The position numbers were made by a program, and so were the translations under genes. The notes below the pieces were generated by a model. It was not told the origin of the DNA. It did no database searches and saw nothing but the letters and a program-made list of their open reading frames with translations. A stretch of 64,000 bases of DNA from an uncultured Chitinophagaceae bacterium (GTDB lineage Bacteria > Bacteroidota > Ignavibacteria > UBA10030 > UBA8401): NCBI GenBank assembly GCA_964439265.1, contig CAYTOA010000005.1, forward strand, positions 9,865-73,864, in the 5' to 3' direction. Below are positions 9,462-35,064 of this stretch, piece after piece; the first letter of the stretch is position 1; each line of letters starts with the position of its first letter.

Positions 9462-12400
9462 ATGTTTCTAAACCAAACCAATATGAAGGGAAAACGAGAA
9501 ATGATTTCGAAACCAGCAACAAAGAAGGCCGGAAGCAAAAGGTCGGGGTCTCACCAGGATGCAGCGATGGCAGAGATACTTCGTCTTGCTGAAGCGGCAA
9601 AAGCGGGGCGACTTGCAGAGCGAGCCGACCTCACAAAAGTTGACGGCGATGCCAGGGAGCTCCTCCAGGGCGTCAACGAAATGCTTGATGCGGTTATTAT
9701 GCCGCTCAATGTTACCGCCAAGTATGTCGACGACATCAGCAAAGGCGTAATTCCTCCGGTCATCACCGACAACTACAACGGTGATTTTAACGTCATCAAA
9801 ACCAACCTGAATTCAGTTGTGAAGATGATGAGCGACCTGTTGTCCGAGACGGATAAATTAGTCAAAGCGACAGTAGACGGCAAATTATCGACTCGCGGTG
9901 ACTCTGCCAAATTTTCGGGCGGCTGGGGTATGTTGGTCGGCGGAGTCAATAACCTCGTCGATGCATTTGTCAGGCCGATCAACGTTACAGCGGAATATGT
10001 CGACCGGATTTCCAAAGGCGACATTCCCCCGAAGATCGTCGATACATACAATGGCGATTTCAACGAGATCAAGAACAATCTTAACGCATGTATCGATACG
10101 ATGACTGGTCTGCTTGTCGAGACCGATACATTAATCAAAGCAACGGTCGAAGGCAGGCTTTCAGTGCGCGCCGAAGCGGGCAAATTTGCCGGCGGCTGGG
10201 GCAAACTGGTCGGCGGTGTCAACAACCTCGTCGATGCATTTGTCAGGCCGATCAACGTTACAGCGGAATATGTCGATCGCATTTCCAAAGGCGACATCCC
10301 GCCGAAGATCGTCGATACGTACAACGGCGATTTCAACGAGATCAAAAACAATTTGAACGCCTGTATCGACACGATGACCGGACTGCTGGTTGAGACCGAT
10401 ATGTTAATCAAGGCGACGGTAGAAGGTAAATTGTCGACACGCGGCGACGCAGCGAAATTTGCCGGCGGTTGGGGCAAATTGGTCGGCGGAGTTAACAACC
10501 TCGTCGATGCGTTTGTCAGACCGATCAACGTCACAGCAGAATATGTCGACCGGATTTCCAAAGGCGACATTCCGCCGAAGATCGTGGATACGTACAACGG
10601 CGATTTCAACGAGATCAAGAACAATCTTAACGCTTGCATCGATACGATGAGCGGACTGCTTGTCGAGACCGATATGTTAATCAAAGCGACAGTTGAAGGT
10701 AGGCTTTCGGTGCGCGCTGAAGCGGGCAAATTTGCCGGCGGCTGGGGCAAATTGGTTGGCGGAGTTAACAACCTCGTCGATGCATTTGTCAGACCGATCA
10801 ACGTTACGGCAGAATATGTCGACCGCATCTCCAAAGGCGACATCCCGCCAAAGATCGTCGATACGTACAACGGTGATTTTAACGAGATCAAGAATAACCT
10901 TAACGCCTGTATCGATACGATGAGCGGACTGCTTGTCGAGACCGATATGTTAATCAAAGCGACAGTTGAAGGTAGGCTTTCGGTGCGCGCTGAAGCGGGC
11001 AAATTTGCCGGCGGCTGGGGCAAATTGGTTGGCGGAGTTAACAACCTCGTCGATGCATTTGTCAGACCGATCAACGTTACGGCAGAATATGTCGACCGCA
11101 TCTCCAAAGGCGACATCCCGCCAAAGATCGTTGATACATACAACGGTGATTTTAACGAGATCAAAAACAACCTTAACGCCTGTATCGATACGATGACTGG
11201 TCTCCTGGTTGAAACAGATACGTTAATCAAAGCGACAGTTGAGGGCAGATTATCAGTGCGCGCAGAAGCAGGCAAATTTGCCGGCGGCTGGGGCAAACTG
11301 GTCGGCGGAGTAAACAACCTCGTCGATGCATTTGTCAGACCGATCAACGTTACGGCAGAATATGTCGACCGCATCTCCAAAGGCGACATCCCGCCAAAGA
11401 TCGTTGATACATACAATGGCGATTTCAATGAGATCAAGAATAACCTTAATGCCTGTATCGATACGATGAGCGGACTATTAACAGAAACAGACAAACTCAT
11501 TAAGGCCACGGTTGAAGGAAAATTGTCGACACGCGGAGACGCGGACAAGTTCGCCGGCGGCTGGGGCAAACTGATCGGCGGAGTCAACAACCTCGTCGAT
11601 GCATTTGTCAGGCCGATCAATGTGACGGCAGAATATGTCGACCGGATATCCAAAGGCGATATCCCGCCAAAGATCGTTGATACATACAATGGCGATTTCA
11701 ATGAGATCAAGAATAACCTTAATGCCTGTATCGATACGATGAGCGGACTATTAACAGAAACAGACAAACTCATTAAGGCCACGGTTGAAGGAAAATTGTC
11801 GACACGCGGAGACGCGGACAAGTTCGCCGGCGGCTGGGGCAAACTGATCGGCGGAGTCAACAACCTCGTCGATGCATTTGTCAGGCCGATCAATGTGACG
11901 GCAGAATATGTCGACCGGATATCCAAAGGCGATATCCCGCCAAAGATCGTTGACGTTTACAATGGCGACTTTAACGAGATCAAGAACAATCTGAACGCCT
12001 GTATCGATACGATGAGCGGTCTGCTCGTCGAGACCGATATTCTAATCAAAGCGACAGTTGAAGGCAAGCTTTCAGTGCGCGCAGAAGCGGGCAAATTTGC
12101 CGGCGGCTGGGGCAAACTGGTCGGCGGAGTTAACACTCTCGTCGATGCGTTTGTCAAACCGATCAACGTTACGGCGGAATATGTCGACCGGATTTCCAAA
12201 GGCGACATCCCGCCGAAGATCACCGATACCTACCATGGTGATTTCAATGCGATCAAGAGCAACCTGAATGCTTGCATCGACACGATGACTGGCCTTTTGG
12301 CTGAGACAGACATGTTGATCAAGGCGACGGTTGAAGGTCGATTGGCAGTACGCGGCGAAACGGGCAAATTTGCAGGCGGTTGGAGTAAACTTGTCGGCGG

Positions 12401-13826
12401 AGTGAACACTCTTGTCGATGCGTTTGTGAAACCGATCAACGTTACAGCTGAATATGTCGATCGAATCTCCAAAGGCGACATCCCGCCAAAAATCACCGAT
12501 GTATACCAGGGCGATTTCAACGAGATCAAGACCAACCTGAACCAGGCCATTAACGCAATAAACTTATTGGTTTCGGATGGCGTCACGCTTGCGCAAGCGG
12601 GCATCGAAGGGAAGTTGGCCACACGTACCGATGCGACGAAGCATCAGGGCGACTTCCGCAAGATCGTCGAAGGAACCAACAACCTGTTGGATGCGGTGAT
12701 CAAGCCGATCCAGGAGGCCGCTGAAGTGTTGGCAGAGCTTGCGAAAGGTGACCTGACGGCACGTATTGAAGGTCAATATCAAGGCGAGCATGCGATGATC
12801 AAGGACAGCATCAATGAGATGAGCGAATCTCTGGATCGCGCAATGAGAGAAGTAGGAGAAGCGGTCAGTGCGACGGCGAGCGCCTCAAGCCAGATCAGTT
12901 CGAGCAGCGAGGAGATGGCAGCAGGAGCTCAAGAGCAAACGAGCCAGGCAGCCGAAGTCGCGAGCGCGGTCGAAGAAATGACAAAGACGATCGTCGAGAA
13001 CTCGAAGAATGCAAGCGACACCGCCGGAACAGCGAAAGAAGCCAAGGGCGCTGCCGAAGCCGGAGGCAAGGTCGTGGAAGAGACCATCACCGGTATGAGG
13101 CAGATCGCCGAGGTTGTTAAGAAATCGGCCGGGACGGTTCAGGAGCTTGGCAAGTCGAGCGATCAGATCGGAGAGATCATCGGAGTGATCGATGATATCG
13201 CCGATCAGACGAACCTGCTGGCGTTGAATGCTGCCATCGAGGCGGCACGAGCCGGAGAACAAGGAAGAGGGTTCGCCGTGGTTGCCGATGAAGTCAGGAA
13301 ACTGGCCGAACGGACGACCAAAGCAACTAAGGAAATCGCCGGTATGATCAAAAAGATTCAGCTCGATACCAAGGGCGCCGTTGAGTCGATGGACGAAGGC
13401 ACCAAGAAGGTCGATGCGGGGATCGCGTTGGCAGACAAGGCTGGCATTTCGCTGCATGAAATCGTCGGGATCAGTCAGAAGGTAACGGACATGGTCACTC
13501 AGATCGCAGCAGCAAGTGAGGAGCAGTCGAGTGCAAGCGAGCAGATTTCCAAGAACGTTGAGGGAATCAGCGCGGTAACAGGCGAGACGGCTCAAGGTGT
13601 TCAGCAGATCGCAAGAGCTGCCGAAGACCTGAATCGTTTGACAGCCAACCTCGAACTTTTGGTTTCGAAGTTCAAGTTGTCCAGCGACAGTTCTGCCCAG
13701 CGCACTACCGGGCACAAGCCTGCAGGGACTTCAGGAAAATCATCCATGAAGGCTATGTCAGGACCGGCTAAGTCGAAGATCGCAGTACGCGAGAATGGGA
13801 AGATTGTGCCGCTCGATCAACAATGA
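9462..13826 (+). CDS. Soluble methyl-accepting chemotaxis protein with a poly-HAMP array (~23 HAMP-like units) and a C-terminal MCP signalling domain
   Basis: No N-terminal transmembrane segment. Eleven tandem 91-aa units, each made of two alternating HAMP-like halves ([43 protein letters not shown] and [44 protein letters not shown]). One canonical HAMP follows ([18 protein letters not shown]). MCP signature [35 protein letters not shown]. Confidence 0.9.
9687..12692 (+). repeat. Tandem array of 11 copies of a 273-bp unit (coding, in frame) inside the MCP gene; several copies are near-identical at the DNA level
   Basis: Identical spurious-frame ORF translations at 10693-10923 and 10966-11196 sit exactly 273 bp apart, so those copies are near-identical. 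The encoded 91-aa unit repeats 11 times. The repeat also generates a 717-aa antisense artefact ORF. Confidence 0.9.
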
Positions 13827-13841
13827 TAATTCATCCCTTCG

Positions 13842-13872
13842 CTCCCCTTTGTCTTCGTACGACAAAGGGGAG
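13842..13872 (+). terminator. Stem-loop (12-bp stem ctcccctttgtc / gacaaaggggag, 7-nt loop) 16 nt after the MCP stop; no U-tract
   Basis: Perfect inverted repeat read directly from the sequence. Not followed by a T-run, so it may be an RNA-stability hairpin or weak terminator rather than a canonical intrinsic terminator. Confidence 0.35.
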
Positions 13873-14026
13873 ACGGGTAGGGAGACTCGACAGGACCAAA
13901 TCATAGAGATTGTCGGCAGCTTGCTCAAGATTTTGCAAGCGTGCCAAATTCCAAGTCGGGATATAAAAGAGACAGTCCATTTTTTTTCAAGGGCGTTAGC
14001 CCAAACACAACATAGGAGACAACGAA

Positions 14027-14521
14027 ATGTCCGGAACAACAACAGACATCAAAGGAGCGACACAGGGCAAATCGGAAGAGTTGATCCAGTTGGTGAGTTT
14101 CAACATCGGTGACGAAGAGTTCGGTGTTGATATCCTGAAAGTGCAAGAGATCAATCGTATGCTTGACGTAACCCGCGTGCCGAACGCCCCGGAGTACGTG
14201 GACGGAGTGATCAACCTAAGAGGGAAGGTCATTCCTATCATAGATTTGCGACGGCGGTTCCAAATGGAGCGCAAAGAGCACGATAAGAATACCCGTATTG
14301 TCGTCGTCGAACTGAGCGGCAAGGTGGTCGGGTTCGTTGTTGACGCCGTGAGCGAAGTATTGAGGATCCCGAAGAGCGTTACCGAAGCACCGCCGCCGAT
14401 GGTGGCCGGAGTTGATGCGTCCTATATCACCGCAGTAGGTAAACTCGAAGACCGGCTGCTCATCTTATTGGACCTCGAAAAAGTTCTTTCAAACGAGGAC
14501 CAAAAAGCGTTGGCGGCATAA
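14027..14521 (+). CDS. cheW: Chemotaxis coupling protein CheW
   Basis: CheW domain: LVSFNIGDEEFGVDILKVQEI...VPNAPEYVDGVINLRGKVIPIIDLRRRF. The size (164 aa) is typical. Confidence 0.9.
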   Translation: MSGTTTDIKGATQGKSEELIQLVSFNIGDEEFGVDILKVQEINRMLDVTRVPNAPEYVDGVINLRGKVIPIIDLRRRFQMERKEHDKNTRIVVVELSGKVVGFVVDAVSEVLRIPKSVTEAPPPMVAGVDASYITAVGKLEDRLLILLDLEKVLSNEDQKALAA

Positions 14522-14582
14522 CGGTCAGAGATTCTAGAATGCGTTCCCATTCCTTTCAATTGGATGGGCAGAAACTCGTTCG

Positions 14583-15245
14583 ATGCTGCATTTGAAACTA
14601 GTTGTGAACAATCAGGAACGGAGCTATTTCATGGCATTTACTTTCTTCTTTCGCGACATCACAGTCCTTGATATGATCTCAAAACATGTGATGCCGAATC
14701 TGGCCGGCTACAGCCGGGTCAGGATTTGGGACGGGGGGTGCGCGATGGGGCCGGAGCCATATTCGCTCGCCATAACCCTTGCTGAATCAATGGGGCATTT
14801 TGCCTTCCGCAATATTCATATCGACGCGACGGACATCGATGAGATGGAAGATTTCGGCAAAACCATCGAACTTGGAATCTATCCAAAAGACCAGGTAGAG
14901 CGAATTCCTCCGGATATTTTCGCAAAGTATTTTGTCCCTGCTGAGAAGGAGGGATATTTCCGCATCATCGAATCCGTGAGACAGTCGATTCATTTCCAGC
15001 GTCATGACCTTCTATCGCTCAAGCCAATCGGTGAAGGTTATCATTTGATCGTATGTAAGAATGTACTTCTCCATTTTCACCCAGTCGACCGCGCAAAGGT
15101 GATAAGAATGTTTTATTCCGCCCTCGCTCCCGGCGGATATTTTGCCACCGAGCGGACGCAGGAGATGCCCCAGGAATTGGCTCATCTATTTTCCCAGGTT
15201 TCGTCCGAAGGGCAGTTGTACAAGAAACTGGAAGTTGCAGCGTGA
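14583..15245 (+). CDS. CheR-type SAM-dependent methyltransferase, catalytic domain only (lacks the N-terminal helical domain)
   Basis: FFFRD motif, IWDGGCAMGPEPYSLAI, ATDID, LIVCKNVLLHF and APGGYF all match the CheR methyltransferase fold. An alternative start at the ATG at 14631 has a better RBS (ggag). Confidence 0.65.
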   Translation: MLHLKLVVNNQERSYFMAFTFFFRDITVLDMISKHVMPNLAGYSRVRIWDGGCAMGPEPYSLAITLAESMGHFAFRNIHIDATDIDEMEDFGKTIELGIYPKDQVERIPPDIFAKYFVPAEKEGYFRIIESVRQSIHFQRHDLLSLKPIGEGYHLIVCKNVLLHFHPVDRAKVIRMFYSALAPGGYFATERTQEMPQELAHLFSQVSSEGQLYKKLEVAA

Positions 15246-15853
15246 AAATTCATCTTCTCTCATCACCAAGCGCAGTGTATTCGGGGAACGCTTATCTCGT
15301 CCTCGGAGATTCCAATCGGCTTGATGACGTGAATTCGCTGGTCGATGTTGGTACCGACGGCAGCATATTACGGAGCATCGCTCTTACCTGGACCGGTGTC
15401 GGAAAGAAGCCCGTCGATCGCGTTGTCCTTACGCATTCTCATTTCGACCATGCGGGGGGTCTCTCAAAAATTCGTGAAGCGTATGATCCGGAAATTTGTG
15501 CGTTTGCATTGATTGAGGGAGTAAAGAGGCAACTATTCCACGGCGACATCCTTCTGCTCGGGGATGAATGGTTCGAAGTTCTGCATGCCCCCGAGCATTC
15601 TTCCGACTCAATCTGTCTTTATTCGGAGCGAACGGGAACTCTTTTCTCCGGCGATGCCCCGTTTTTCATACGCAGCCCCGGTGGATCGTATGGAGAGCAT
15701 TTCGTGGTCTTACTCGAAGACCTTTTGCGGCGCGGAGTAAGCGCTATCTATTCGGGTCATGATATTCCAATTGTTAATAACGCAATGCAGATCATTCGTG
15801 ATACGCTTCAGAACGTCATACTGAGCACCGGCACGGCACACATCTCGAAGTAG
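15242..15853 (+). CDS. MBL-fold metallo-hydrolase
   Basis: HxHxDH motif (VLTHSHFDHAGG) plus downstream His/Asp ligands. The GTG start overlaps the upstream stop (GTGA), indicating translational coupling. Confidence 0.7.
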   Translation: MKIHLLSSPSAVYSGNAYLVLGDSNRLDDVNSLVDVGTDGSILRSIALTWTGVGKKPVDRVVLTHSHFDHAGGLSKIREAYDPEICAFALIEGVKRQLFHGDILLLGDEWFEVLHAPEHSSDSICLYSERTGTLFSGDAPFFIRSPGGSYGEHFVVLLEDLLRRGVSAIYSGHDIPIVNNAMQIIRDTLQNVILSTGTAHISK

Positions 15854-17515: not shown

Positions 17516-17923
17516 ATGCCACTGATGACATGGAAAAACGAGTACAGCGTCAAGATCCAAACGATCGATTCACAACACAAGAAGCTTATCGATCTCCTAA
17601 ACCAAATTTATGATGCATCGCGTTTGGGCAAAGGGAAAGAAGTCCTTGGAAAAATTCTGAACGAGCTTGTTGTCTACACGAAAGTTCACTTTACAACCGA
17701 AGAGGATTTTTTTAAGAAGTTTTCTTATCCCGACTATGTGCTGCATAAGATCGAACACGATAAACTGACAAAACAAGTCACTGACTTTCAGGAGCAGTAT
17801 GAAGCTGGCAATGCAACCCTATCCATAGAAATCATGCAGTTCTTGAAGGATTGGCTAAGCGATCATATCCTCGGCACTGACAAGAAATACGTCGAATTCC
17901 TGCATTCTAAAGGTTTACACTGA
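17516..17923 (+). CDS. Bacteriohemerythrin (HHE cation-binding domain)
   Basis: W..Y..I..QHK..., H-x3-E (HFTTEEDFF), HKIEHDKL and DWLSDHILGTDKKY iron-ligand motifs. 135 aa. RBS gaggga. Confidence 0.85.
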   Translation: MPLMTWKNEYSVKIQTIDSQHKKLIDLLNQIYDASRLGKGKEVLGKILNELVVYTKVHFTTEEDFFKKFSYPDYVLHKIEHDKLTKQVTDFQEQYEAGNATLSIEIMQFLKDWLSDHILGTDKKYVEFLHSKGLH

Positions 17924-17996
17924 ACTACCTCATCCAGATAGAGAGACTAATATCTCGCCGAGGAGGGATTGGAAGAATCGATGGTGGAGCGGGAGG

Positions 17997-20900
17997 TTGC
18001 TTCATCACGGTCGCAGGAAAATAGAGAAGTGCGAATTTTTCACCAACGGATGTTTCACGGCAGAGTCAACAATGGAAATTGCGGAAATGACGAAGAACAG
18101 CCATGCAGAGGAGTCCACCGACGGAATTTGCATGACCGATGAAGAGGGCCGTGTCATCGAATGGAATCATGGCATGCAGGACATCACCGGGATCAACCCA
18201 GAAGAGGTCTTGGGCAGACCATTATGGGACGTGCGATTCCAATTGACTCCGCCGGAAGCTCGCACGGACGATTTATTGAAACGGCTCGAGACTGCCGCGA
18301 TGAATCAGTTGAAAACCGGTAATAGCGAATCGGCGGCCGAATTCGCGGAACAATGGATTCTTCAGCAGGACGGCAGCCGGAAGCTCGTCCTGAAGAATTT
18401 TTTTACCGTGAAGACTCAAACCGGCTATATGATAGGTGCCATAGTCAGAGACATTACATCTGAGAGGAATGCCGAGAATCAACTGCTGTTCTTAAAAAGA
18501 GCAGTAGAAAGCACTTCTTCTGCGGTTCTCCTTTGCGACCTGGAAGGGAGGATAGAGTATGCTAACCCCGGAGCTCTGGCGATGGTAGAGTTCACAGCGG
18601 AGGAGGCAGCTGGAAAGCTATTGTCTGATTTTGGCGATAGCATGGCTAAAGAGAATCTAAGCTCCCAAACTATTCCAGCGCTGAAGAAATCAGGTCAGTG
18701 GTCTGGCGAAGTTAACCTTCAGAAGAGAGACGGAACTCTTGTTCCGATCCATTCTACTTGTGCGCTTGTCTCTGATAGCCATGGCAATCCTCAAGGTCTG
18801 CTGTCAATCTGTTATGACCTTACTCAACGCAAAAAGGCAGAGTCTGCTCTCCAAACGAGCGAGAGTCTACTCTCAAACGCCATGAACATGGCGAATCTGG
18901 GACATTGGGAATACGATGTGGCCGCAGATCTCTTCACCTTCAACGATAATTTCTATTCCATTTTCCGTACGACGGCCGAGAAGGTCGGAGGATATACGAT
19001 GTCCTCTGCCCAATACGCGCAAAGATTTGTCCATCCCGATGACATGTCTGTGGTCAGCACAGAAATTCGGAAAGCGCTTGAGGATCGTGACCCCCAGTTC
19101 GGTGCAACACTGGATCATCGAATAATCTATGCCGACGGTTCGCCCGGCTATATTTCCGTCCGATCCTTCGCTGTCAAGGATGAAGAGCATAAAGCGGTCA
19201 AACTCTACGGAGTCAATCAGGACATCACCGAACGTAAACAACTGGAAGAAGCGCTGCTGAAGAGCAAACAGCGGTATGACAAGCTAGCTTCAACAATTCC
19301 TGTTGGTTTGTACCTTTTGCATAGTAAGCCTGATGAATCATTCACCTTTGACTACGTCAGCCCAAGGATGGCGGAGATTCTCGACCTGAGCGTCGAAAGC
19401 CTTCTTGGAGATGCACAACTTGCGTTTAGCCAAATACTTCTGGAGGACCAGACCTCTTTCGTGAGTGTCAATCGGGAGAGTTTTGAAAAGCAGTGTTCCT
19501 TTGATTGGGAGGGGCGGATTCAGATCAACGGAGCCGTTAAGTGGTTGCACATAGCCTCCACTCCCGAATTGCAGGAGGATGGAGATACTTTGTGGCATGG
19601 TGTCGTCGGCGATCTCACGGATGCCAAGCTAGCAGAGGGGGCACTGAAGGCAAGTGAACGTAGGATCCGTTCGTACATCGAGCATGCGCCCATGGGTGTT
19701 TTCATCATTGACGGTTCCGGATGCATTACTGAAGTGAATCCCCAAGGAATCAAAGTGATCGGGTACTCAGAGATTGAGGTTCTCGGGAGGCCGCTGACGG
19801 ATTTCGTAGTGCCTCAATTCTTGGATAAGGCCGGATGGGACCTCGGTACTGTTGTTACGGGAGGGAATGTCGAGGATGTTCTACAGGCTCGAAGAAAAGA
19901 CGGCTCGTTTGTCTGGATCTCGGTAAACTGCGTGAAGATCGATGACAATCGTTTCATGTCCTTCTGCCAAGACATCACTTCGAATAAACAGGCCGAAATG
20001 GCGTTGGCGGAGAGTGAGGCAAAATATCGCTCCGTTGTTGACGGTGTTAAGGAAGTTATTTTCACGACTGATGCGCAAGGAAATTGGACGTTTCTTAATC
20101 CGGCCTGGGAAGAGATCACAGGATTCACTGTTGAAGAAACCATCGGACAGTTGTTTCTGAACTACCTTCTTCCCGAGGACAGCAAGTTGAACATAGCGCG
20201 ATTTGAACGGTTGATTGAAGAGAAGGAAAACTTCTACCGTCACGAAATTCGTTACAGAACAAAGAGTGGCGGTTTCCGTTGGATAGAAGTGTCTGCACGA
20301 CTGACAAGAGACGAGAACGGTGCGATCACCGGAACCGCCGGAACCCTCATGGATACAACGGAGAGGCACTTGGCAGAAGATGCCCTCAAAGAAGCGAAAG
20401 AGAATCTGGAGTTACGGGTTTCCAAGCGGACAGCAGAACTCCGCCTCGTTGCAGAAGAACTGCACGTCGAACTTGATGAGCGAAAGAAAGTTGAGCAAGC
20501 CCTTAGTGTATCAAAAAAGAGGGTCTCGCTGCACATTCAGCAGACACCTCTTGCTGTGATTGAATGGGACTTGGAACAACGTATTTCGACATGGAACCCT
20601 GGGGCTGAGAAGGTGTTCGGTTATCCTCAGGCAGAAGCCAAGGGGCAACCTGCATCATTCATCGTTCCCGAAACGGAAAAAAAACACTCCATCGAAATGT
20701 TTCAAAAGCAGGTAAGGAATCGGAAGAGTTTGAAGGGTGTTTTTAAGAACATAACGAAGTCCGGAAAGTTGATCACGTGTGAATGGGTCGACACGGTCTT
20801 GGAGGATGAAACAGGAAAGGTTGTTGGTCTGACTTCCATCGCGCAAGACATCACCGAAAGGCTCGATGCGGAGCATCAGCTTCGTATGCTTTCGTACGCG

Positions 20901-23300
20901 GTAGAACAAAGCCCGGCATCTGTTGTCATTACGGATACGGAAGGCAACATTGAATATGTCAATCAAAAATTCGAACAGGTGAGCGGCTATTCACTCGACG
21001 AAGTACGCGGCGGGAATTCGCGTATTCTGAAGTCCGGGAATACCCCTCTGCAGGAATATCAAGATCTCTGGAAAACAATTAAGTCGGGAGAGGAATGGAA
21101 AGGTATCTTCCATAACAAAAAGAAATCCGGTGAATTGTACTGGGAGACAGTAGATATCTCACCCGTCAGGGACTCCCAGGACGTTATTACTCATTTTGTC
21201 GCCGTGAAAGAAGACACCACTGAACGAAAGCACGCAGAGGAGGAATTGCTGTTTTCTAAAGAACGATACCGTGCTTTGATAGAGAATCTCAGCGACGTGG
21301 TCTTTTCGGTAGACATGAACGGCTGCTTCAGCTATATCAGCCCGTCGGGCTTGAAGGCATCGGGATATTTGACGGATGATTTGGTCGGCATGAATTTTGA
21401 ACGATTTGTCCATCCTCAGGATATTCTCCCACTGAAAAAGACCTTTCGCCGGATCATCAAAAATAAGTCGGAACAAATCGAAGTTCGCGCTTTCTGCAAG
21501 GACGGAAGCGAACGGTATCTTCGCCTTTCATGCCATCCGATGTCTGAAATGGGCCGTTTCGTCGGAATCGGCGGAGTTTTCACAGACATTACTGAAAGCA
21601 AAGAACGATTGCTAGCACAGGAACAAGCGAGTCAACTTAAGGTCCAGGCGGAGGAACTTCGGAAAGCCCGTGAAGTTGCAGAAAAAGCGTCACGGATGAA
21701 GTCTGAGTTCATGGCAAACATGAGTCACGAAATCAGGACGCCGCTGAACGGGATCGTTGGGGTTGCCGACCTCCTCGAAGGTACTGCACTCACTCCTCAG
21801 CAGCGACAGTACGTCGACATCATCGGTAGAAGCAGCGGATCGTTGCTTTCCATCATTAATGACATCCTCGATTTTTCAAAAATAGAAGCTGGAAAGGTTA
21901 CTCTGGAGTCTATCCAATTTGATTTGAGAGACCTCATCGGGCAAACTATTCAAATGATGATGAGCCAAGCGGGTTCAAAGGGTTTAGAGCTCGCTTCGCT
22001 TGTCTATAAAGATGTTCCGAATAATTTGCGGGGAGATCCCCTGCGGTTGCGGCAGATCATACTCAATCTCTTAAGTAATGCCGTCAAGTTTACCGTCGAA
22101 GGAGAAGTGTTTCTTCGCGTGACATTGGCCCCAAGCAGTTCCGAAAGAGTCAGACTGCATTTCGCCGTTTCGGACACCGGCATTGGGATTGCTGAAGAGG
22201 TGCAAGAGTTGCTCTTTCGGCCATTCACCCAAGCAGATGGTTCGACGACTCGCAAGCATGGAGGGACTGGTCTCGGCTTGTCGATTTCAAAACGCCTTGT
22301 TGGGCTCATGGGCGGAACCATCGGACTCGTAAGCAAAGCTGGCACAGGTTCGACGTTTTGGTGTGAGCTGCCATTTGAAACATTCACAAATGAACACGGC
22401 GCTGCGCCTCAATCGGCCTCGCCGCTTCTTGCTTACCGGGCATCCGGTCTCAACAAGAACACGGGAAGCCCGCTCTTGGCAGGCGCACACGCGCAGGTTC
22501 ATGTGCTCGTGGTTGAGGACCAGGAAGTCAATCAGTTTGTTCTGATAAATATGTTGAACAGGTTCAACACCATGATTAAAGTTGTCTCCACAGGTGTCGA
22601 AGCAGTTGATGCCGTGAGAACGACGACGTATGACATCGTGCTGATGGACTGCCACTTGCCGAAGATGGACGGTTGGGAAGCCACGTCCAGAATCCGGAAG
22701 ACAGAAGGACAGGGACGACATACTCTTATCGTTGCCGTCACCGCCGACGCTTTGACCGGCGACAGTGAGCGCTGCTTTGCCGCTGGAATGGACGACTATA
22801 TCTCCAAACCTATTAGAATCATTGATCTGGAACGAGTTTTCAAAAAATGGCTTTGGGGAGTTGAAGCAAAAAGAGCCGACGCTGAGAAAGTCGGAGCAAA
22901 TTCCGATGAACCCGCAAGCCTGGACTTTGCGAGGATCAGCGAGTTGCGATCAATCGAGGGCGGAGAGCAGCTCCTTGGGAAAATTTTCGATATCTATGAG
23001 CGGGACACTCCCGCAAAAATCGGGAACCTGCGGAGGGCCATCATACATGCTGAATGGGATGCTCTTGGTGAGATTATTCATGGCCTTTCAGGGACGTGCG
23101 CAAATGTCGGGGCTGAACGGCTGGTAGCGTTATGCTCGGAGTTGAAGGAAAAGGCTCGAAAAAAAGAGTCACGCAAAATGATCGCTATCGTCGAAACGAT
23201 GCAACGAGAAATCGAACACGTCAAAACTCTTCTTCGAGAAGAGCTATCGCGGAAATCCGTTCCTGATGAAACAGCAGTTAGTGAAAATATCATCCCTTAA
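17997..23300 (+). CDS. Giant multi-PAS unorthodox hybrid histidine kinase (>=8 PAS, HisKA, HATPase_c, REC, C-terminal HPt); the true start is probably a few tens of codons downstream
   Basis: Many PAS/PAC units, including one PAS_3 module about 60% identical to those in the first kinase. Classical H-box MSHEIRTPLNGIVGV. G-boxes [15 protein letters not shown]. Receiver VLVVEDQEVN...VLMDCHLPKMDG. HPt motif HGLSGTCANVGA. The annotated start codon is TTG with a poorly spaced RBS. Confidence 0.85.
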   Translation: MLHHGRRKIEKCEFFTNGCFTAESTMEIAEMTKNSHAEESTDGICMTDEEGRVIEWNHGMQDITGINPEEVLGRPLWDVRFQLTPPEARTDDLLKRLETAAMNQLKTGNSESAAEFAEQWILQQDGSRKLVLKNFFTVKTQTGYMIGAIVRDITSERNAENQLLFLKRAVESTSSAVLLCDLEGRIEYANPGALAMVEFTAEEAAGKLLSDFGDSMAKENLSSQTIPALKKSGQWSGEVNLQKRDGTLVPIHSTCALVSDSHGNPQGLLSICYDLTQRKKAESALQTSESLLSNAMNMANLGHWEYDVAADLFTFNDNFYSIFRTTAEKVGGYTMSSAQYAQRFVHPDDMSVVSTEIRKALEDRDPQFGATLDHRIIYADGSPGYISVRSFAVKDEEHKAVKLYGVNQDITERKQLEEALLKSKQRYDKLASTIPVGLYLLHSKPDESFTFDYVSPRMAEILDLSVESLLGDAQLAFSQILLEDQTSFVSVNRESFEKQCSFDWEGRIQINGAVKWLHIASTPELQEDGDTLWHGVVGDLTDAKLAEGALKASERRIRSYIEHAPMGVFIIDGSGCITEVNPQGIKVIGYSEIEVLGRPLTDFVVPQFLDKAGWDLGTVVTGGNVEDVLQARRKDGSFVWISVNCVKIDDNRFMSFCQDITSNKQAEMALAESEAKYRSVVDGVKEVIFTTDAQGNWTFLNPAWEEITGFTVEETIGQLFLNYLLPEDSKLNIARFERLIEEKENFYRHEIRYRTKSGGFRWIEVSARLTRDENGAITGTAGTLMDTTERHLAEDALKEAKENLELRVSKRTAELRLVAEELHVELDERKKVEQALSVSKKRVSLHIQQTPLAVIEWDLEQRISTWNPGAEKVFGYPQAEAKGQPASFIVPETEKKHSIEMFQKQVRNRKSLKGVFKNITKSGKLITCEWVDTVLEDETGKVVGLTSIAQDITERLDAEHQLRMLSYAVEQSPASVVITDTEGNIEYVNQKFEQVSGYSLDEVRGGNSRILKSGNTPLQEYQDLWKTIKSGEEWKGIFHNKKKSGELYWETVDISPVRDSQDVITHFVAVKEDTTERKHAEEELLFSKERYRALIENLSDVVFSVDMNGCFSYISPSGLKASGYLTDDLVGMNFERFVHPQDILPLKKTFRRIIKNKSEQIEVRAFCKDGSERYLRLSCHPMSEMGRFVGIGGVFTDITESKERLLAQEQASQLKVQAEELRKAREVAEKASRMKSEFMANMSHEIRTPLNGIVGVADLLEGTALTPQQRQYVDIIGRSSGSLLSIINDILDFSKIEAGKVTLESIQFDLRDLIGQTIQMMMSQAGSKGLELASLVYKDVPNNLRGDPLRLRQIILNLLSNAVKFTVEGEVFLRVTLAPSSSERVRLHFAVSDTGIGIAEEVQELLFRPFTQADGSTTRKHGGTGLGLSISKRLVGLMGGTIGLVSKAGTGSTFWCELPFETFTNEHGAAPQSASPLLAYRASGLNKNTGSPLLAGAHAQVHVLVVEDQEVNQFVLINMLNRFNTMIKVVSTGVEAVDAVRTTTYDIVLMDCHLPKMDGWEATSRIRKTEGQGRHTLIVAVTADALTGDSERCFAAGMDDYISKPIRIIDLERVFKKWLWGVEAKRADAEKVGANSDEPASLDFARISELRSIEGGEQLLGKIFDIYERDTPAKIGNLRRAIIHAEWDALGEIIHGLSGTCANVGAERLVALCSELKEKARKKESRKMIAIVETMQREIEHVKTLLREELSRKSVPDETAVSENIIP

Positions 23301-23363
23301 CATTATTCGATTAATATCGGTCCATCGGGGTATTGCCAAAGAGAAATCGGCAAAGGAGAGTGA

Positions 23364-24623
23364 ATGAATATTTTACTTGTTGACGATGATGAGGGAGCCC
23401 GGTTATTCCTCCAGCGCGTATTGGTTAAGAAATTCCAATACACCGTTCTGGAGGCGAGAGACGGACTTGAAGGTCTCTCGATTGTTCAAAATAAGCCGCT
23501 TGAACTTATCTTCCTCGATATCCACATGCCCGTTATCGATGGCATAGAGATGCTTGAAGCGATTCGTTCCGATCCGGCGCATTCCGCGCTGCCGGTTATC
23601 GTGATGTCGGTCGCAAGCGATAAGGCGGAGATCCTGCGTCTTATCAGGTTGGGCATTTCCGACTATATTCTGAAGCCTCTCAGAGCCGAAACTGTGTACA
23701 AGCGAGTCTGTGATGTCATCGCAAGGAAAAAGACAAAAGGTTCGATGTATCAGGCGGCTGCAGTTGAGACACAAGGCGATCGGAAAATTCTCCTGGTAGA
23801 TAAAGACCCAAACTTCCGGGCCTTTTTTACTTCCGTGCTGGGTGGACGATTTGAAATTCAGGAGGCCGCGAGCGGGGTGGAGGGTCTTGAAATGTACATG
23901 AACCACCTCCCAAGAATCGTGTGCATCGGAGAAGGGCTGCCCTTGCTGGGCGAATCTCTCCTTTCCCGAAAAATCCAACAACTCGACAAAAGCCGGCAGA
24001 CAGGAATATACCTGTGTGCCGAAACATCGCGGGTGAATAATGGCGATGAAAAACTTTTCGACGGATTCTTGAAGAAGTCCTTTGTCCCTGAAGCGTTCGA
24101 AAAAGAATTCACGGGTGTTGTGCTGAATGAGAAGAATGTGTTTGAAACAGTTCTTGAAATCGTCCAAAACAGCTTGTCTCCTGAAGTCGTTACGGCGATG
24201 CAGCAAACCATCGGTGTCATGGCATCACAAGAGATTCAAATACTGGGATCTGAAGAAGGAAATCATATCGCGGATGAAGTTTACGCGACCGTCGATCTCG
24301 TGCACAAATCCGAGGAGTTTCGTATTACCGTCGCTCTCGTAGGGTCCCGATCAGACGTGGCGATGATCGCAAGCAAGATCTTGGGATCGCCGACAGAGAT
24401 GGACCAAGGCGCAGGTGACGCTTTTGGAGAACTGGTAAACACGATCGGGGGAAGGATTCGATCATCAATCGAAATCCGGGGGATCGAGGTCGAACAATTT
24501 CCTCAACAGGTGTTATCAAAGAATGGGAACGATCCTTCTTATAACTGGCAGCTGCGTCTTCCATTTTCTGCAGGGCCCGGTGAAAAATACTATTTGGGGG
24601 TTTCAGTCATGAAATTGAACTGA
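23364..24623 (+). CDS. Response regulator: REC + degenerate (pseudo) receiver + C-terminal CheX/CheC-like phosphatase domain
   Basis: N-terminal REC (ILLVDDDEG...FLDIHMPVIDG...ILKP). The second REC-like region lacks the phospho-Asp. The C-terminus carries a CheC/CheX-type motif, D-x3-E-x2-N-x20-P (DAFGELVNTIGG...QFP). Sits 64 bp downstream of the HPt-containing kinase. Confidence 0.55.
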   Translation: MNILLVDDDEGARLFLQRVLVKKFQYTVLEARDGLEGLSIVQNKPLELIFLDIHMPVIDGIEMLEAIRSDPAHSALPVIVMSVASDKAEILRLIRLGISDYILKPLRAETVYKRVCDVIARKKTKGSMYQAAAVETQGDRKILLVDKDPNFRAFFTSVLGGRFEIQEAASGVEGLEMYMNHLPRIVCIGEGLPLLGESLLSRKIQQLDKSRQTGIYLCAETSRVNNGDEKLFDGFLKKSFVPEAFEKEFTGVVLNEKNVFETVLEIVQNSLSPEVVTAMQQTIGVMASQEIQILGSEEGNHIADEVYATVDLVHKSEEFRITVALVGSRSDVAMIASKILGSPTEMDQGAGDAFGELVNTIGGRIRSSIEIRGIEVEQFPQQVLSKNGNDPSYNWQLRLPFSAGPGEKYYLGVSVMKLN

Positions 24624-30444: not shown

Positions 30445-31857
30445 TTGGACAAGATTTCCATGATAGTTGCAGAGTCATTGCTCCAACAGATGAAGATATC
30501 GATCTCCGACGACGGCACGCGCGCCTTCGTGACCAATGACGATTTGAGCGAGGACGCTTCCCTTACGGAAGAGACCCTTACTCAAATCCTTGGGGAAAAG
30601 GGGATAGTGTTCGGGATCAAAGGCGGGCTAATGATCGCTCTGGTCGCTGCCGCAGCGCAGCGAGCCCCGGTTCTCGTTGCAGAAGGACTCGTCCCTGTTA
30701 CTGGGAAAGACGGCTGGATTGAATATCTTATTGATGTCAGGAGACTTGAACCGATGGAGGAGAAAGGGGGACGGGTTGACCTGCATAACCTTCACCGAAT
30801 ACACAATGTGAAAAAAGGAGAGAGACTTGCGATTATTCATCCTCCCGAAGCAGGAATTCCGGGGATGTCTGTAAAAGGAATGCCGATTGCCGCGAAGATT
30901 GGGAAAAGTGCGAAGTTCGTTCGGGGGGCATTCGTTGCACACGACCCGGATGATGCCGACGCCCTTGTCGCATCGGAAGACGGCAACCTTATCGTCAAAG
31001 CGGACGGAACTATCGAGGTTCAGCCGGTACTGACGATTCGTGGCGACATAGACTTTTCATCGGGCGACATTGATTTCATCGGCTCGCTTGTCGTTACCGG
31101 CGACGTCAAGAGTGATTTCACCGTAAAGGTTCAAAAGAACGTAGAAATACACGGGAATGTTGGTGACGCGACAATTGTCGCCGGCGGCAATGTTCTGATC
31201 AAAAATGGATTTCTTGGCCGCGGCAAAGGGTCGGTCGTTGCCAGCGGGAATGTGGCGATACAACATGTCCTCAATCAATCGATTACAAGCGACAAGAAAG
31301 TAACTATCGAGAGGGAAGCCGTCTGCGCAAAAATCACCGCTGGAGATGCGATTATTTCTCCTAAAGCAAGATTCGTTGGTTGTGTGCTGCGCGGGGGCAA
31401 TGAAATTGATGTACTGAATCTCGGCAACGGCGACGATACCCAGGCCATTGTTCGAGTAGGGCGGCGAGCCGAACTGCTTGAAAATTGTAAGGCGCTCACG
31501 GCAGACCTGGAGCAGTTGAATAAACGGTCTGCAGAAATTCGGGATTACGTCTACAAGCTTGTTCGCATGCAGCTCGACGCTCCGCTGACGGAAGAACAAA
31601 ACAATCTTCTTGAAAGACAGAAGACCCTTCAAGCCGAGATTCCGGCGGATGCCGGAAGACTTCAAAAGGAGAAATCTGAGATTGAGACCGCATTGCAAAC
31701 CACGGGTTCGGCGCGTCTCACGGTGCGGGGCACGGTATACGTCAACGTTCTGGTCGATATCAACGGAGTAAAGAAACTCATGCAAAATGCGCTGAAAGAG
31801 GTAGTGTTTACGGAAAAAAACGGGAAGATAGAAGAACAATCGGCGCCTATCTCCTGA
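30445..31857 (+). CDS. FapA/DUF342-family protein (flagellar-assembly protein A-like), beta-solenoid plus C-terminal coiled coil
   Basis: N-terminal ...ISISDDGTRAFV... and PVTGKDGWIEY. Central repeated G-x-V/I solenoid turns (HGNVGDATIVAGGNVLIKNG...GSVVASGNVAIQH...). C-terminal coiled coil. It is the first gene of the chemotaxis operon. Confidence 0.5.
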   Translation: MDKISMIVAESLLQQMKISISDDGTRAFVTNDDLSEDASLTEETLTQILGEKGIVFGIKGGLMIALVAAAAQRAPVLVAEGLVPVTGKDGWIEYLIDVRRLEPMEEKGGRVDLHNLHRIHNVKKGERLAIIHPPEAGIPGMSVKGMPIAAKIGKSAKFVRGAFVAHDPDDADALVASEDGNLIVKADGTIEVQPVLTIRGDIDFSSGDIDFIGSLVVTGDVKSDFTVKVQKNVEIHGNVGDATIVAGGNVLIKNGFLGRGKGSVVASGNVAIQHVLNQSITSDKKVTIEREAVCAKITAGDAIISPKARFVGCVLRGGNEIDVLNLGNGDDTQAIVRVGRRAELLENCKALTADLEQLNKRSAEIRDYVYKLVRMQLDAPLTEEQNNLLERQKTLQAEIPADAGRLQKEKSEIETALQTTGSARLTVRGTVYVNVLVDINGVKKLMQNALKEVVFTEKNGKIEEQSAPIS

Positions 31858-31884
31858 TCGAACAACAACGATTATATTAATTCA

Positions 31885-33336: not shown

Positions 33337-33345
33337 GAGATTGTT

Positions 33346-34227
33346 GTGACAGTACCTCTTATGGCGGTAACACACCTTCCGGGATTTGCTGCGGCTCCGA
33401 AAATGAGCGATGAAATGTTCCGTGCTACGCGCGATTTCATTTATCAGAACACGGGCATTTATTTCCAGGACAACAAGAAATATCTCCTGGAAGGCAGGCT
33501 CGGAAAACGTCTGCAAATATTGGAGATCGACGATTTTGGAACATATCTCCAGCTTGTTCGATTCGGCACCCAGAAGATTGCTGAGATGAAGTTTCTTTAC
33601 GATGCCGTGACGATCAACGAAACATTCTTCTTCCGTAACGAACCGCAATTTGAAGCATTCGAACGGACGCTTGTTCCCCAGCTGATCGCAGCTCGTGGAA
33701 CCAGCAGGACGAAACTGAGAGTATGGAGCGCGGCAAGCTCTTCAGGAGAAGAAGCGTATACGATCGCAATGATCTATCTTGAACGGCTGCGGGTGAAATA
33801 CCCCGGACTGGAGATAGAAATTGTCGGAACAGATATCAGCCCATCCGTTCTCGAGACCGCCCGCTCCGGAATTTACCGTGAATACTCCGTCCGTAATATG
33901 TCAAAGGCGTTTCTTGACAAATATTTCGACAATGTCGACGGTCGATTTCATATCGCAGATGAGGCGAAAAGACTCGCCCGATTTCAGCATCTCAACCTGT
34001 ACGACCGCCCAAGAATGCGCGGAATGGGCCGCTTCGATATAATTTTTTGTGCGAATGTTCTCATTTATTTCGACCAGGCGTCGAAGATCCAGGTTGTTTC
34101 GGATCTCTATGACAACCTCAATCCCGGCGGATCGCTTTTCATCGGTTACGCAGAATCGCTGCACGGCATTTCCTCGGCCTTCAAACTCGTCAATTTTCCT
34201 AAAACCGTGTCATACCAAAAGGAGTGA
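33346..34227 (+). CDS. cheR: Chemotaxis protein methyltransferase CheR (full length)
   Basis: N-terminal CheR_N helical region, then ETFFFRNEPQ, LRVWSAASSSGEEAYTIAM, GTDIS and IIFCANVLIYFD. Confidence 0.88.
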   Translation: MTVPLMAVTHLPGFAAAPKMSDEMFRATRDFIYQNTGIYFQDNKKYLLEGRLGKRLQILEIDDFGTYLQLVRFGTQKIAEMKFLYDAVTINETFFFRNEPQFEAFERTLVPQLIAARGTSRTKLRVWSAASSSGEEAYTIAMIYLERLRVKYPGLEIEIVGTDISPSVLETARSGIYREYSVRNMSKAFLDKYFDNVDGRFHIADEAKRLARFQHLNLYDRPRMRGMGRFDIIFCANVLIYFDQASKIQVVSDLYDNLNPGGSLFIGYAESLHGISSAFKLVNFPKTVSYQKE

Positions 34228-34234
34228 TACCGCT

Positions 34235-35058: not shown

Positions 35059-35064
35059 TTCACG

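What the first reader, a model, noticed from the sequence alone, without database searches (positions are those of the whole stretch)
17516..24623. Hemerythrin -> 1767-aa multi-PAS unorthodox kinase (REC+HPt) -> REC/pseudo-REC/CheX-like regulator: a candidate O2/redox-to-chemotaxis phosphorelay
Three consecutive co-directional genes separated by 74-bp and 64-bp gaps:
- a standalone bacteriohemerythrin, an O2/NO-binding di-iron protein;
- a giant kinase with at least eight PAS domains, a receiver and a C-terminal HPt;
- a response regulator whose C-terminus carries a CheC/CheX-type phosphatase motif (D-x3-E-x2-N...P).

A plausible model is that the HPt phosphorylates the REC-CheX protein, which then dephosphorylates CheY-P. 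That would couple gas/redox sensing directly to flagellar switching without a chemoreceptor. I do not recognise this arrangement as a described system.
Basis: inference. Interest (0 to 1): 0.75.

Follow-up and report, generated by a model that had tools for sequence, protein, structure and literature searches.

The report
Kinase-controlled CheX-type chemotaxis phosphatase module
The three genes are really there, but only two belong together: the giant sensor kinase and a regulator that carries a CheX-type phosphatase domain form a conserved pair beside the flagellar chemotaxis genes, whereas the hemerythrin belongs to a separate chemoreceptor module upstream.

Summary
The region encodes a bacteriohemerythrin (17516-17923), a soluble kinase with 8-9 PAS domains followed by HisKA-HATPase-REC-Hpt (17997/18087-23300), and a 419-aa regulator (23364-24623). 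The regulator consists of an intact receiver, a pseudo-receiver (Gly at the phospho-Asp site) and a CheX-fold domain.

The CheX call is solid. Pfam scores just under its threshold, but the family profile hits eight CheX structures. An AlphaFold model (pLDDT 96) matches only CheX structures first, and D352-x3-E356-x2-N359 aligns on the catalytic E96/N99 of CheX.

Kinase and regulator are a conserved pair: in four relative lineages with upstream sequence the neighbouring gene ends in Hpt, and in three the genes overlap by 4 nt. In the close relatives the pair sits just upstream of FapA/HEAT-CheR-CheY-CheY-CheZ-CheA-CheB. Family members in Gemmatimonadales and Acidobacteria lie directly upstream of cheA. 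All nine che-linked members keep E-x2-N, against 4 of 19 others.

The hemerythrin is not part of this unit. Congeners (CheA 85-88% identical) have MCP-CheW-CheR-MBL-Hr-NTP transferase-FapA with no kinase or regulator.

The most likely function is a phosphorelay-gated CheY-P phosphatase. This is an uncharacterised variant of a known kind.

The parts
17516..17923 (+). Bacteriohemerythrin, 135 aa, with all seven di-iron ligands. It is adjacent to the kinase-regulator pair but not part of it. It is the conserved last gene of the upstream MCP-CheW-CheR-MBL-Hr module.
   Evidence: for identity; for conserved neighbours in relatives.
17997..23300 (+). Soluble unorthodox hybrid histidine kinase. It is 1767 aa from the mechanical TTG start and 1737 aa from ATG 18087 as called publicly.
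18102..21596 (+). Array of 8-9 PAS domains, the sensory input. The ligands are unknown.
   Evidence: 8 stretches of PAS_3/PAS_4 and TIGR00229. Eight PAS-linker motifs matched the pattern scan and a ninth was read by eye.
21696..22379 (+). HisKA (H1244) plus HATPase_c kinase core.
   Evidence: E=7e-24 and 6e-29.
22503..22832 (+). Internal receiver of the kinase (D1551).
   Evidence: E=3e-22.
22983..23225 (+). C-terminal Hpt domain (H1695 in HGLSGTCANVGA). It is the presumed phosphodonor for the regulator.
   Evidence: PF01627, 36.6 bits against a cutoff of 24.6. The Hpt is conserved at the end of the upstream gene in L081, L082, L083-85 and L087.
23364..23726 (+). Regulator domain 1: an intact receiver with D7, D8, D52, S82, Y101 and K104.
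   Evidence: D52 is kept in 93% and K104 in 98% of 133 family representatives.
23784..24119 (+). Regulator domain 2: a pseudo-receiver with a (beta-alpha)5 fold. Gly189 replaces the phospho-accepting Asp.
   Evidence: Model secondary structure; alignment to REC structure 3T6K at E=0.003 with G189 opposite the Asp; G, S or A at this site in 95% of the family.
24138..24623 (+). Regulator domain 3: a CheX-fold domain.
24417..24440 (+). Codons for D352-A-F-G-E356-L-V-N359, the CheX-type catalytic helix motif.
   Evidence: Aligned on S-x3-E96-x2-N99 of T. maritima CheX; conservation.
9462..15853 (+). Upstream module that the hemerythrin travels with. It comprises a soluble poly-HAMP MCP (9462-13826), CheW (14027-14521), a short CheR (14583-15245) and an MBL-fold hydrolase (15242-15853).
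   Evidence: conserved order in L173-L175.
30445..38902 (+). Flagellar chemotaxis operon that the kinase-regulator pair is syntenic with. It comprises FapA, a HEAT protein, CheR, CheY (34235-34609), CheY (34672-35058), a CheZ-like protein, CheA and CheB.
   Evidence: synteny in L082, L083, L085, L086.

Best explanation
Two separate accessory modules lie side by side upstream of the flagellar chemotaxis operon of an uncultured Ignavibacteria-like member of the Bacteroidota.

**Module A** is the soluble poly-HAMP MCP, CheW, short CheR, MBL hydrolase and hemerythrin. The hemerythrin belongs here.

**Module B** is the kinase-regulator pair. The proposed mechanism is:
1. The cytoplasmic kinase integrates unknown intracellular cues through its 8-9 PAS domains.
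2. It autophosphorylates on H1244.
3. It relays the phosphoryl group through D1551 and H1695 (Hpt) to D52 of the regulator.
4. Phosphorylation of that receiver, working through the pseudo-receiver, switches the C-terminal CheX domain.
5. The CheX domain keeps the E-x2-N dyad and hydrolyses the aspartyl-phosphate of CheY-type receivers, most probably the two CheYs of the adjacent operon.
6. This sets the CheY-P level, and therefore flagellar switching, alongside the resident CheZ-like protein.

**Shown here:** the domain identities, the catalytic and phospho-acceptor residues, the kinase-regulator pairing, the chemotaxis linkage, and the independence of the hemerythrin.

**Inferred:** the phosphotransfer partner, phosphatase activity, the substrate, and the direction of regulation.
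For: **The CheX domain is real.**
- Profile-to-PDB search hits eight CheX-family structures at E=1.6e-7 to 0.02.
- The domain model has pLDDT 95.9.
- The 13 best Foldseek hits are CheX chains (E~1e-9, TM 0.65-0.73), followed by CheC, FliY and FliM.
- E356 and N359 align on the catalytic E96 and N99.
- PF13690 is hit by 18 of 28 family members.

**The relay is complete.** Kinase residues H1244, D1551 and H1695 are present. The regulator's REC has all conserved residues.

**The pairing is conserved.**
- The upstream gene ends in Hpt in L081, L082, L083-85 and L087.
- The stop and start codons overlap by 4 nt in L082, L083-85 and L086.
- The window's regulator has an AAGGAG ribosome-binding site and no terminator-like site ahead of it.

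**The chemotaxis link recurs.**
- Regulator orthologs at 49-51% identity sit directly upstream of (REC or FapA)-HEAT-CheR-CheY-CheY-CheZ-CheA-CheB-flgBC-fliEF.
- Gemmatimonadales members (L004, L008, L025) and Acidobacteria members (L021, L023) sit directly upstream of cheA-cheW-mcp-cheY-cheB-cheR.
- E-x2-N is kept in 9 of 9 che-linked members against 4 of 19 others.

**Published precedent.** Stand-alone CheX is a proven CheY-P phosphatase, including in a species that also has CheZ (PMC12887009).

**The hemerythrin is separate**.
Against: - Nothing here shows activity or phosphotransfer.
- Pfam CheX is below its gathering score for this protein.
- About half of the wider family has lost E or N. 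Q281, G284 and R364, which are not phosphatase residues, are the most conserved positions. The family's core function may therefore be binding rather than catalysis.
- The N-to-P spacing is 20 residues, not the published 21-22.
- In the window an NTP-transferase and another hybrid kinase lie between the regulator and FapA.
- Congeners L173-L175 lack the pair at this locus, so it is dispensable for chemotaxis.
- The operon already has a CheZ-like protein.
- Members next to cheA have no kinase nearby, so CheA rather than the PAS kinase could also be a donor here.
- The 9/9 against 4/19 contrast is not corrected for phylogeny.
Confidence: 0.5

Rival explanations
1. Self-draining phosphate sink. 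The regulator's receiver takes phosphoryl groups from the kinase's Hpt or from CheA. The fused CheX domain then dephosphorylates that same receiver, in cis or across a CheX dimer. The protein would drain the pathway rather than act on free CheY-P.
For: - A roughly 17-residue low-confidence linker (123-139) would let REC1 reach the CheX helix.
- REC1 is intact in 93-98% of the family.
- Members next to cheA have no other kinase nearby.
- Phosphate-sink receivers are an accepted design: CheA-REC, discussed in PMC10542144, and Sinorhizobium CheY1, from general knowledge.
Against: - A sink needs no dedicated phosphatase domain and no pseudo-receiver.
- Half of the family lacks the dyad yet keeps REC1.
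- Retention of the dyad specifically in che-linked genes fits either reading.
Confidence: 0.2
2. Non-catalytic output. The CheX/FliM-like fold serves as a protein-binding module, for example to the flagellar switch or to a CheY. It would be controlled by REC phosphorylation, with no phosphatase chemistry.
For: - The fold is shared with the FliM middle domain and FliY (ranks 15-32).
- The invariant positions are Q281, G284 and R364, not E and N.
- 53% of representatives lack the full dyad.
- Two-domain variants without the CheX part exist (L017, L018, P0037).
Against: The window protein and all che-linked members keep D/S-x3-E-x2-N exactly on the catalytic helix. That is hard to explain without selection for catalysis.
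Confidence: 0.15
3. One reading: hemerythrin senses O2 or NO and controls the PAS kinase, which controls the CheX regulator, as a three-gene unit.
For: - The genes are adjacent and co-directional with no terminator-like site between them.
- The arrangement is kept in all contigs of the same strain.
- Hemerythrin domains are used as sensors elsewhere (PMC9388753).
Against: - The strain-level contigs are 99.7% identical in DNA, so they are not independent evidence.
- In congeners the hemerythrin is kept without the kinase or regulator.
- Regulator relatives have a kinase but no hemerythrin.
- The Hr-kinase gap is probably 148-163 nt.
Confidence: 0.07
4. An ordinary two-component pair whose position next to che genes is incidental. 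The locus is crowded with signalling genes and the pair's output is unrelated to motility.
For: - Four large PAS kinases lie within 30 kb.
- Bacteroidota and Ignavibacteria family members sit among kinases with no che genes nearby (L006, L009, L087).
Against: - Che linkage recurs in three phyla with different gene orders.
- It correlates with retention of the catalytic dyad.
- The only characterised function of the output fold is dephosphorylation of CheY-P.
Confidence: 0.08

Closest known systems
Stand-alone CheX phosphatases (T. maritima 1XKO/1SQU, B. burgdorferi 3HZH, V. vulnificus 6VPW)
   Same: - The same fold, with TM 0.65-0.73.
- The same D/S-x3-E-x2-N helix, aligned residue for residue.
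- Genomic association with chemotaxis.
- Coexistence with CheZ, as in Vibrio (PMC12887009).
   Different: - Here the domain is the C-terminal third of a 419-aa protein, behind a receiver and a pseudo-receiver.
- Sequence identity is only 14-20%.
- Pfam scores it just under threshold.
- The N-to-P spacing is 20 residues.
- Family-specific invariant Q281 and R364 are present.
- Activity is untested.
CheA-CheC/CheX fusions of Leptospira (PMC10542144)
   Same: A CheC/CheX-type phosphatase domain is fused to a phosphorelay component of a chemosensory pathway. This suggests coupled phosphorylation and dephosphorylation control.
   Different: The fusion partner there is the kinase CheA. Here it is a receiver plus pseudo-receiver, fed by a separate PAS kinase with its own Hpt.
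Unorthodox hybrid kinases BarA / ArcB / TorS
   Same: The kinase has the HisKA-HATPase-REC-Hpt order and the H-D-H residues. NCBIfam similarity over the core is 380-450 bits.
   Different: All of those scores are far below the equivalog cutoffs. The window kinase has no membrane anchor, has 8-9 cytoplasmic PAS domains, and its partner is not a DNA-binding regulator.
DcrH of Desulfovibrio vulgaris (MCP fused to a hemerythrin domain; PMC9388753)
   Same: A hemerythrin is tied to a chemoreceptor. The window Hr is closest in sequence to McHr, with DcrH-Hr next. In relatives it always follows an MCP.
   Different: Here the hemerythrin is a separate 135-aa protein. It lies after MCP-CheW-CheR-MBL in the window and its congeners, and directly after the MCP in L176/L177. 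No physical or functional coupling is shown.
Phosphate-sink receivers (CheA-REC of H. pylori cited in PMC10542144; Sinorhizobium CheY1, from general knowledge)
   Same: An extra CheY-like receiver is encoded with the che system and can drain phosphoryl groups.
   Different: Those sinks carry no phosphatase domain.

Membership tests
CheC/CheX/FliY phosphatase family, CheX class (Pfam PF13690) | CheX alpha/beta fold of about 155 residues | tested here: met
   The domain model has pLDDT 95.9. Foldseek ranks 1-13 are all CheX chains, E=1e-9 to 7e-8, TM 0.64-0.73.
CheC/CheX/FliY phosphatase family, CheX class (Pfam PF13690) | Sequence match to the family model above the curated threshold | tested here: inconclusive
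   The score is 23.3 bits for the whole protein and 26.0 bits for the isolated domain, against a gathering score of 27. The family profile does hit eight CheX structures at E down to 1.6e-7, and 18 of 28 relatives hit PF13690.
CheC/CheX/FliY phosphatase family, CheX class (Pfam PF13690) | Active-site motif D/S-x3-E-x2-N-x21/22-P | tested here: met
   D352-x3-E356-x2-N359 aligns on S-x3-E96-x2-N99 of T. maritima CheX. P380 follows after 20 rather than 21-22 residues.
CheC/CheX/FliY phosphatase family, CheX class (Pfam PF13690) | Accelerates CheY-P dephosphorylation | not testable with these tools
   This needs biochemistry. The only indirect support is that the dyad is kept in 9 of 9 che-linked members against 4 of 19 others.
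CheC/CheX/FliY phosphatase family, CheX class (Pfam PF13690) | Homodimer through a continuous beta-sheet | not tested
   Only monomer models were made. The Gly next to the motif (G363) is conserved in 97 of 133 representatives.
Response regulator receiver (PF00072), domain 1 | Acidic pair, phospho-Asp, Ser/Thr, Tyr/Phe and Lys | tested here: met
   D7, D8, D52, S82, Y101 and K104 are present.
Pseudo-receiver, domain 2 | REC fold without a phosphorylatable Asp | tested here: met
   The model shows a (beta-alpha)5 pattern. The domain aligns to REC structure 3T6K at E=0.003 with G189 at the Asp position. The site holds G, S or A in 126 of 133 representatives and Asp in 1.
Unorthodox hybrid histidine kinase (BarA/ArcB/TorS type) | HisKA His, HATPase, internal REC Asp and C-terminal Hpt His in one chain | tested here: met
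   All four Pfam domains score above threshold. H1244, D1551 and H1695 were located. No equivalog cutoff was reached, so it is the same type but not an ortholog.
Bacteriohemerythrin | Family model above cutoff and the H-HxxxE-HxxxH-HxxxxD ligand set | tested here: met
   NF033749 scores 160 bits against a cutoff of 84. Ligands H21, H58/E62, H77/H81 and H117/D122 are readable. Homology to McHr and DcrH-Hr is shown.
Three-gene Hr-kinase-regulator system (as proposed) | Co-conservation of all three genes in related genomes | tested here: not met
   The Hr is kept without the kinase or regulator in L173-L177. The kinase and regulator are kept without Hr in L083. Only same-strain contigs have all three.
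Two-gene kinase-regulator module | Conserved adjacency of an Hpt-ending kinase and the REC-pseudoREC-CheX gene | tested here: met
   L081, L082, L083-85 and L087 show the adjacency, with regulator identity of 37-72%. Overlapping stop and start codons occur in three lineages.

The most novel reading that the evidence does not exclude
REC-pseudoREC-CheX proteins are a phosphorylation-gated class of CheY-P phosphatase. The pseudo-receiver would act as a built-in CheY mimic that occupies the CheX active helix until the true receiver is phosphorylated. A cytoplasmic multi-PAS kinase (here), or CheA itself (in Gemmatimonadales and Acidobacteria), could then tune flagellar switching by controlling signal termination rather than CheY phosphorylation. 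That would be a receptor-independent input into chemotaxis.
Probability: 0.25. Interest if true: 0.7.

Novelty: new variant of a known kind. Interest (0 to 1): 0.45.

Why it matters
In the textbook systems, chemotaxis signals enter through chemoreceptors that control CheA. Regulated signal termination is much less explored, and a 2026 paper (PMC12887009) calls the coexistence of CheX and CheZ in one organism an open puzzle.

If this family is a receiver-gated CheX, it would give a concrete route by which a two-component kinase sets CheY-P lifetime. It would also supply a rationale for a second phosphatase beside CheZ.

The family is coherent: about 240 representatives from 50%-identity clusters at E<=1e-30, nearly all 410-490 aa. 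Members were found in MAGs labelled Bacteroidota/Ignavibacteria, Gemmatimonadota, Acidobacteriota and Hyphomicrobiales. It has no dedicated model in the Pfam or NCBIfam libraries scanned here, and no paper on it was found in the held library.

The corrected placement of the hemerythrin also matters. A free-standing hemerythrin conserved next to an MCP and the che operon is a testable candidate for O2 or redox taxis of the DcrH kind.

Tried and rejected
- A locus scan with the 35-sequence alignment A1 failed because no conserved stretch was found, so the closer set A2 was used.
They returned mostly receiver-only matches and no close orthologs. The best genome hit was 37% identical and the metagenome scan added little.
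- Contigs L088-L092 looked like support for the three-gene order. They turned out to be the same strain at 99.7% DNA identity, so they were discarded as evidence.
- The two key reviews, Muff & Ordal 2008 and Wuichet & Zhulin 2010, are not held. From memory I believe that two-domain REC-CheX architectures are listed in domain databases, but I could not verify this.
- Full-text searches for REC-CheX or CheY-CheX fusions found nothing relevant.
- The promoter and terminator scans were no better than shuffled controls. I also saw no convincing sigma-54 or sigma-28 promoter when reading the two gaps, but this was by eye and not a formal search.
- The relative orientation of the three domains in the full-length model (pTM 0.52) could not be inspected, so the cis-docking and pseudo-substrate ideas remain untested.

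Full report
**1. What is there**

The window is one long + strand locus of signalling and flagellar genes. In order it contains:
- a sigma-54 activator
- two PAS hybrid kinases
- a soluble poly-HAMP MCP, CheW, a short CheR and an MBL hydrolase
- a 473-aa secreted protein
- the hemerythrin, the 1767-aa kinase and the 419-aa regulator
- an NTP-transferase and another PAS hybrid kinase
- FapA, a HEAT protein, CheR, two CheYs, a CheZ-like protein, CheA and CheB
- fliE, F, G, H, I, fliK, flgE, fliM, flhB, flhA and flhF

FlhA is 91-93% identical to proteins of MAGs labelled Bacteroidota and 76% identical to Ignavibacteriales proteins. The source is therefore an uncultured flagellated member of that group. 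Exact copies of the window's proteins occur on a 121-kb NCBI contig and in peat or wetland-type metagenomes.

**2. The observation**

The hemerythrin passes the NCBIfam bacteriohemerythrin model (160 bits against a cutoff of 84). It has the full ligand set and is closest to McHr and DcrH-Hr.

The kinase is soluble. It has 8 PAS stretches by Pfam and TIGR00229. Eight PAS-linker motifs matched the pattern scan and a ninth was read by eye. It has a complete H1244-D1551-H1695 relay.

Two details needed correcting.
- The gaps are 73 and 63 nt.
- The first gap depends on a mechanical TTG start. Public gene calls begin at ATG 18087, which gives 163 nt.
- No terminator-like site lies in the gaps, and the promoter scan is at background level.

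**3. The regulator**

AlphaFold with 35 homologs gives three domains joined by a disordered linker at 123-139 (mean pLDDT 85).

- *Domain 1* is a normal receiver with every conserved residue.
- *Domain 2* has the (beta-alpha)5 receiver pattern and aligns to a solved receiver at E=0.003, but has Gly189 where the phospho-Asp should be. That site is G, S or A in 126 of 133 family representatives.
- *Domain 3* is a CheX domain. Three lines of evidence support this.
  - The protein alone scores just below Pfam's threshold (23.3 and 26.0 bits against 27). A profile of 28 relatives hits eight CheX-family structures (E=1.6e-7 to 0.02).
  - A domain model of pLDDT 95.9 finds CheX chains as its 13 best matches, ahead of CheC, FliY and FliM.
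  - The pairwise alignment with T. maritima CheX puts D352-x3-E356-x2-N359 exactly on S-x3-E96-x2-N99. Those are the residues that PMC12887009 describes as inserting into the CheY active site.

**4. The family**

A profile of the pseudo-receiver plus CheX region finds 241 representatives of 50%-identity clusters at E<=1e-30 and 689 at E<=1e-10. Nearly all are 410-490 aa with the match starting near residue 140, so they share the same three-domain architecture. NCBIfam has no model for the family.

Across 133 representatives the receiver residues are nearly invariant. The full E/N dyad is kept in only 47%. The most conserved CheX-domain positions are Q281, G284 and R364.

**5. Neighbourhoods of the regulator**

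| Relative (regulator identity) | Arrangement |
|---|---|
| L081 (72%) | upstream gene ending in Hpt, then the regulator, then the ortholog of the downstream PAS kinase |
| L083-85 (51%) | a 1001-aa PAS kinase with REC and Hpt overlaps the regulator by 4 nt, followed by FapA and HEAT |
| L082, L086 (48-49%) | a fragment overlaps the regulator by 4 nt (Hpt detected in L082 only), then REC-HEAT-CheR-CheY-CheY-CheZ-CheA-CheB-flgBC-fliE-fliF |
| L087 (37%) | a kinase with Hpt again lies upstream |
| L004, L008, L025 (Gemmatimonadales) | regulator immediately upstream of cheA-cheW-mcp-cheY-cheB-cheR |
| L021 (Acidobacteria) | regulator immediately upstream of cheA-cheW-mcp-cheY-cheB-cheR |
| L023 (Acidobacteria) | two paralogs; one is immediately upstream of cheA, where the locus ends |

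Kinase and regulator are therefore one unit, and the family is repeatedly tied to chemotaxis operons.

The catalytic dyad tracks that tie. All 9 che-linked genes keep E-x2-N, against 4 of 19 members with no che gene within 10 kb. A one-sided hypergeometric (Fisher-type) calculation done by hand gives about 1e-4, not corrected for shared ancestry.

**6. The hemerythrin**

No hemerythrin was detected in any regulator locus apart from contigs of the window's own strain.

Searching from the hemerythrin side settles the question.
- Its 85% ortholog (L173/L174; CheA 88%, CheW 99% identical) lies in MCP-CheW-CheR-MBL-Hr-NTP transferase-FapA-HEAT-CheR-CheY-CheY-CheZ-CheA-CheB. The 71% ortholog (L175; CheA 85%) lies in the same order. 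Neither locus has the big kinase, the regulator, the 473-aa protein or the second kinase.
- A 60% ortholog pair lies between an MCP and HEAT-CheR-CheY-CheY-CheZ-CheA-CheB.
- A 54% pair in Melioribacteraceae lies among metabolic genes.

The hemerythrin's conserved partners are the chemoreceptor module and the che operon. In the window, the kinase-regulator pair lies between the hemerythrin and the NTP-transferase. Either it was inserted here or it was lost from the congeners.

**7. Mechanism**

The best-supported reading is a four-step relay (H1244, D1551, H1695, then D52) that gates a CheX-type phosphatase acting on the CheYs of the adjacent operon. It would work in parallel with the CheZ-like protein.

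I put this at about 0.5. The rivals are:

| Rival | Confidence |
|---|---|
| Self-dephosphorylating phosphate sink | 0.2 |
| Non-catalytic binding output | 0.15 |
| Incidental clustering | 0.08 |

The role of the pseudo-receiver is open. A CheY-mimicking autoinhibitory role is attractive but untested.

**8. Comparison and verdict**

The parts are of known kinds: CheX phosphatases, unorthodox kinases and bacteriohemerythrin. The REC-pseudoREC-CheX architecture fed by an Hpt kinase is uncharacterised as far as the held literature shows. The nearest published fusion is CheA-CheC/CheX in Leptospira (PMC10542144).

I rate this a new variant of a known kind and of moderate interest. The headline idea of a hemerythrin-to-CheX relay is not supported. 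The kinase-gated phosphatase and the MCP-linked free hemerythrin are both worth testing.

Noticed in passing
window 9908-12542 (inside MCP gene 9462-13826): There is a tandem array of 9.7 copies of a 273-bp unit with 87% matches. It encodes about 12 HAMP_2 repeats in a soluble MCP with no transmembrane segment. Repeat number differs between relatives: 1454 aa here, 1260 aa in L173, and split into 195 + 1152 aa in L175. The array is therefore expanding and contracting.
   Followed up: partly
window 15905-17326: This 473-aa protein has no Pfam or NCBIfam hit. It has an N-terminal signal-peptide-like segment and a C-terminal Phe, which suggests an outer-membrane beta-barrel. It lies between the MBL gene and the hemerythrin only in this strain and is absent at that position in congeners L173-L175.
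   Followed up: partly
window 14583-15853: The module conserved with the hemerythrin contains a short CheR that lacks the N-terminal CheR_N domain (220 aa). Its end overlaps an MBL-fold hydrolase gene by 4 nt. The CheR-MBL-Hr order is kept in L173-L175. An MBL hydrolase inside a chemoreceptor module is unexplained.
   Followed up: no
window 17340-17363: A 10-bp-stem inverted repeat (AATGCAACAT..ATGTCGCATT) lies 14 nt after the stop of the 473-aa gene and about 150 nt before the hemerythrin start. It has no T-run on the + strand. It may be a transcript boundary or a binding site.
   Followed up: no
window 1353-4466, 4581-8243, 25822-29781: Three further large PAS hybrid kinases carry a receiver but no Hpt. 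Among the window's large ORFs scanned with Pfam, the only Hpt domains are that of the 1767-aa kinase and P1 of CheA. Several kinases could therefore converge on one Hpt. In L081 the ortholog of the third kinase directly follows the regulator.
   Followed up: no
L017 9971-10801, L018 9935-10801; P0037: Truncated relatives of 276-289 aa consist of the receiver plus pseudo-receiver without any CheX domain. In L017/L018 they sit among kinases, with an MCP and CheW on the opposite strand.
   Followed up: no
L023 2373-3875 (-) and 9938-11257 (+): One Acidobacteria locus carries two paralogous REC-pseudoREC-CheX genes, and both keep E-x2-N. One lies next to cheA and the other next to a hybrid kinase.
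   Followed up: no
L176 8001-8899; L178 8001-8829: Hemerythrin orthologs at 54-60% identity occur as tandem pairs. One pair is inside a che locus and one is in a branched-chain amino-acid / haem biosynthesis neighbourhood.
   Followed up: no
window 47064-51194: A FliK-like protein is unusually long at 1376 aa. Only its last ~80 residues match the Flg_hook domain.
   Followed up: no
window 35065-35904: The CheZ-like protein is weak against both models: Pfam 34.9 bits against a cutoff of 30.7, and NCBIfam 26 bits against 257. The resident 'CheZ' is therefore divergent, and its activity should not be assumed when weighing redundancy with the CheX domain.
   Followed up: no
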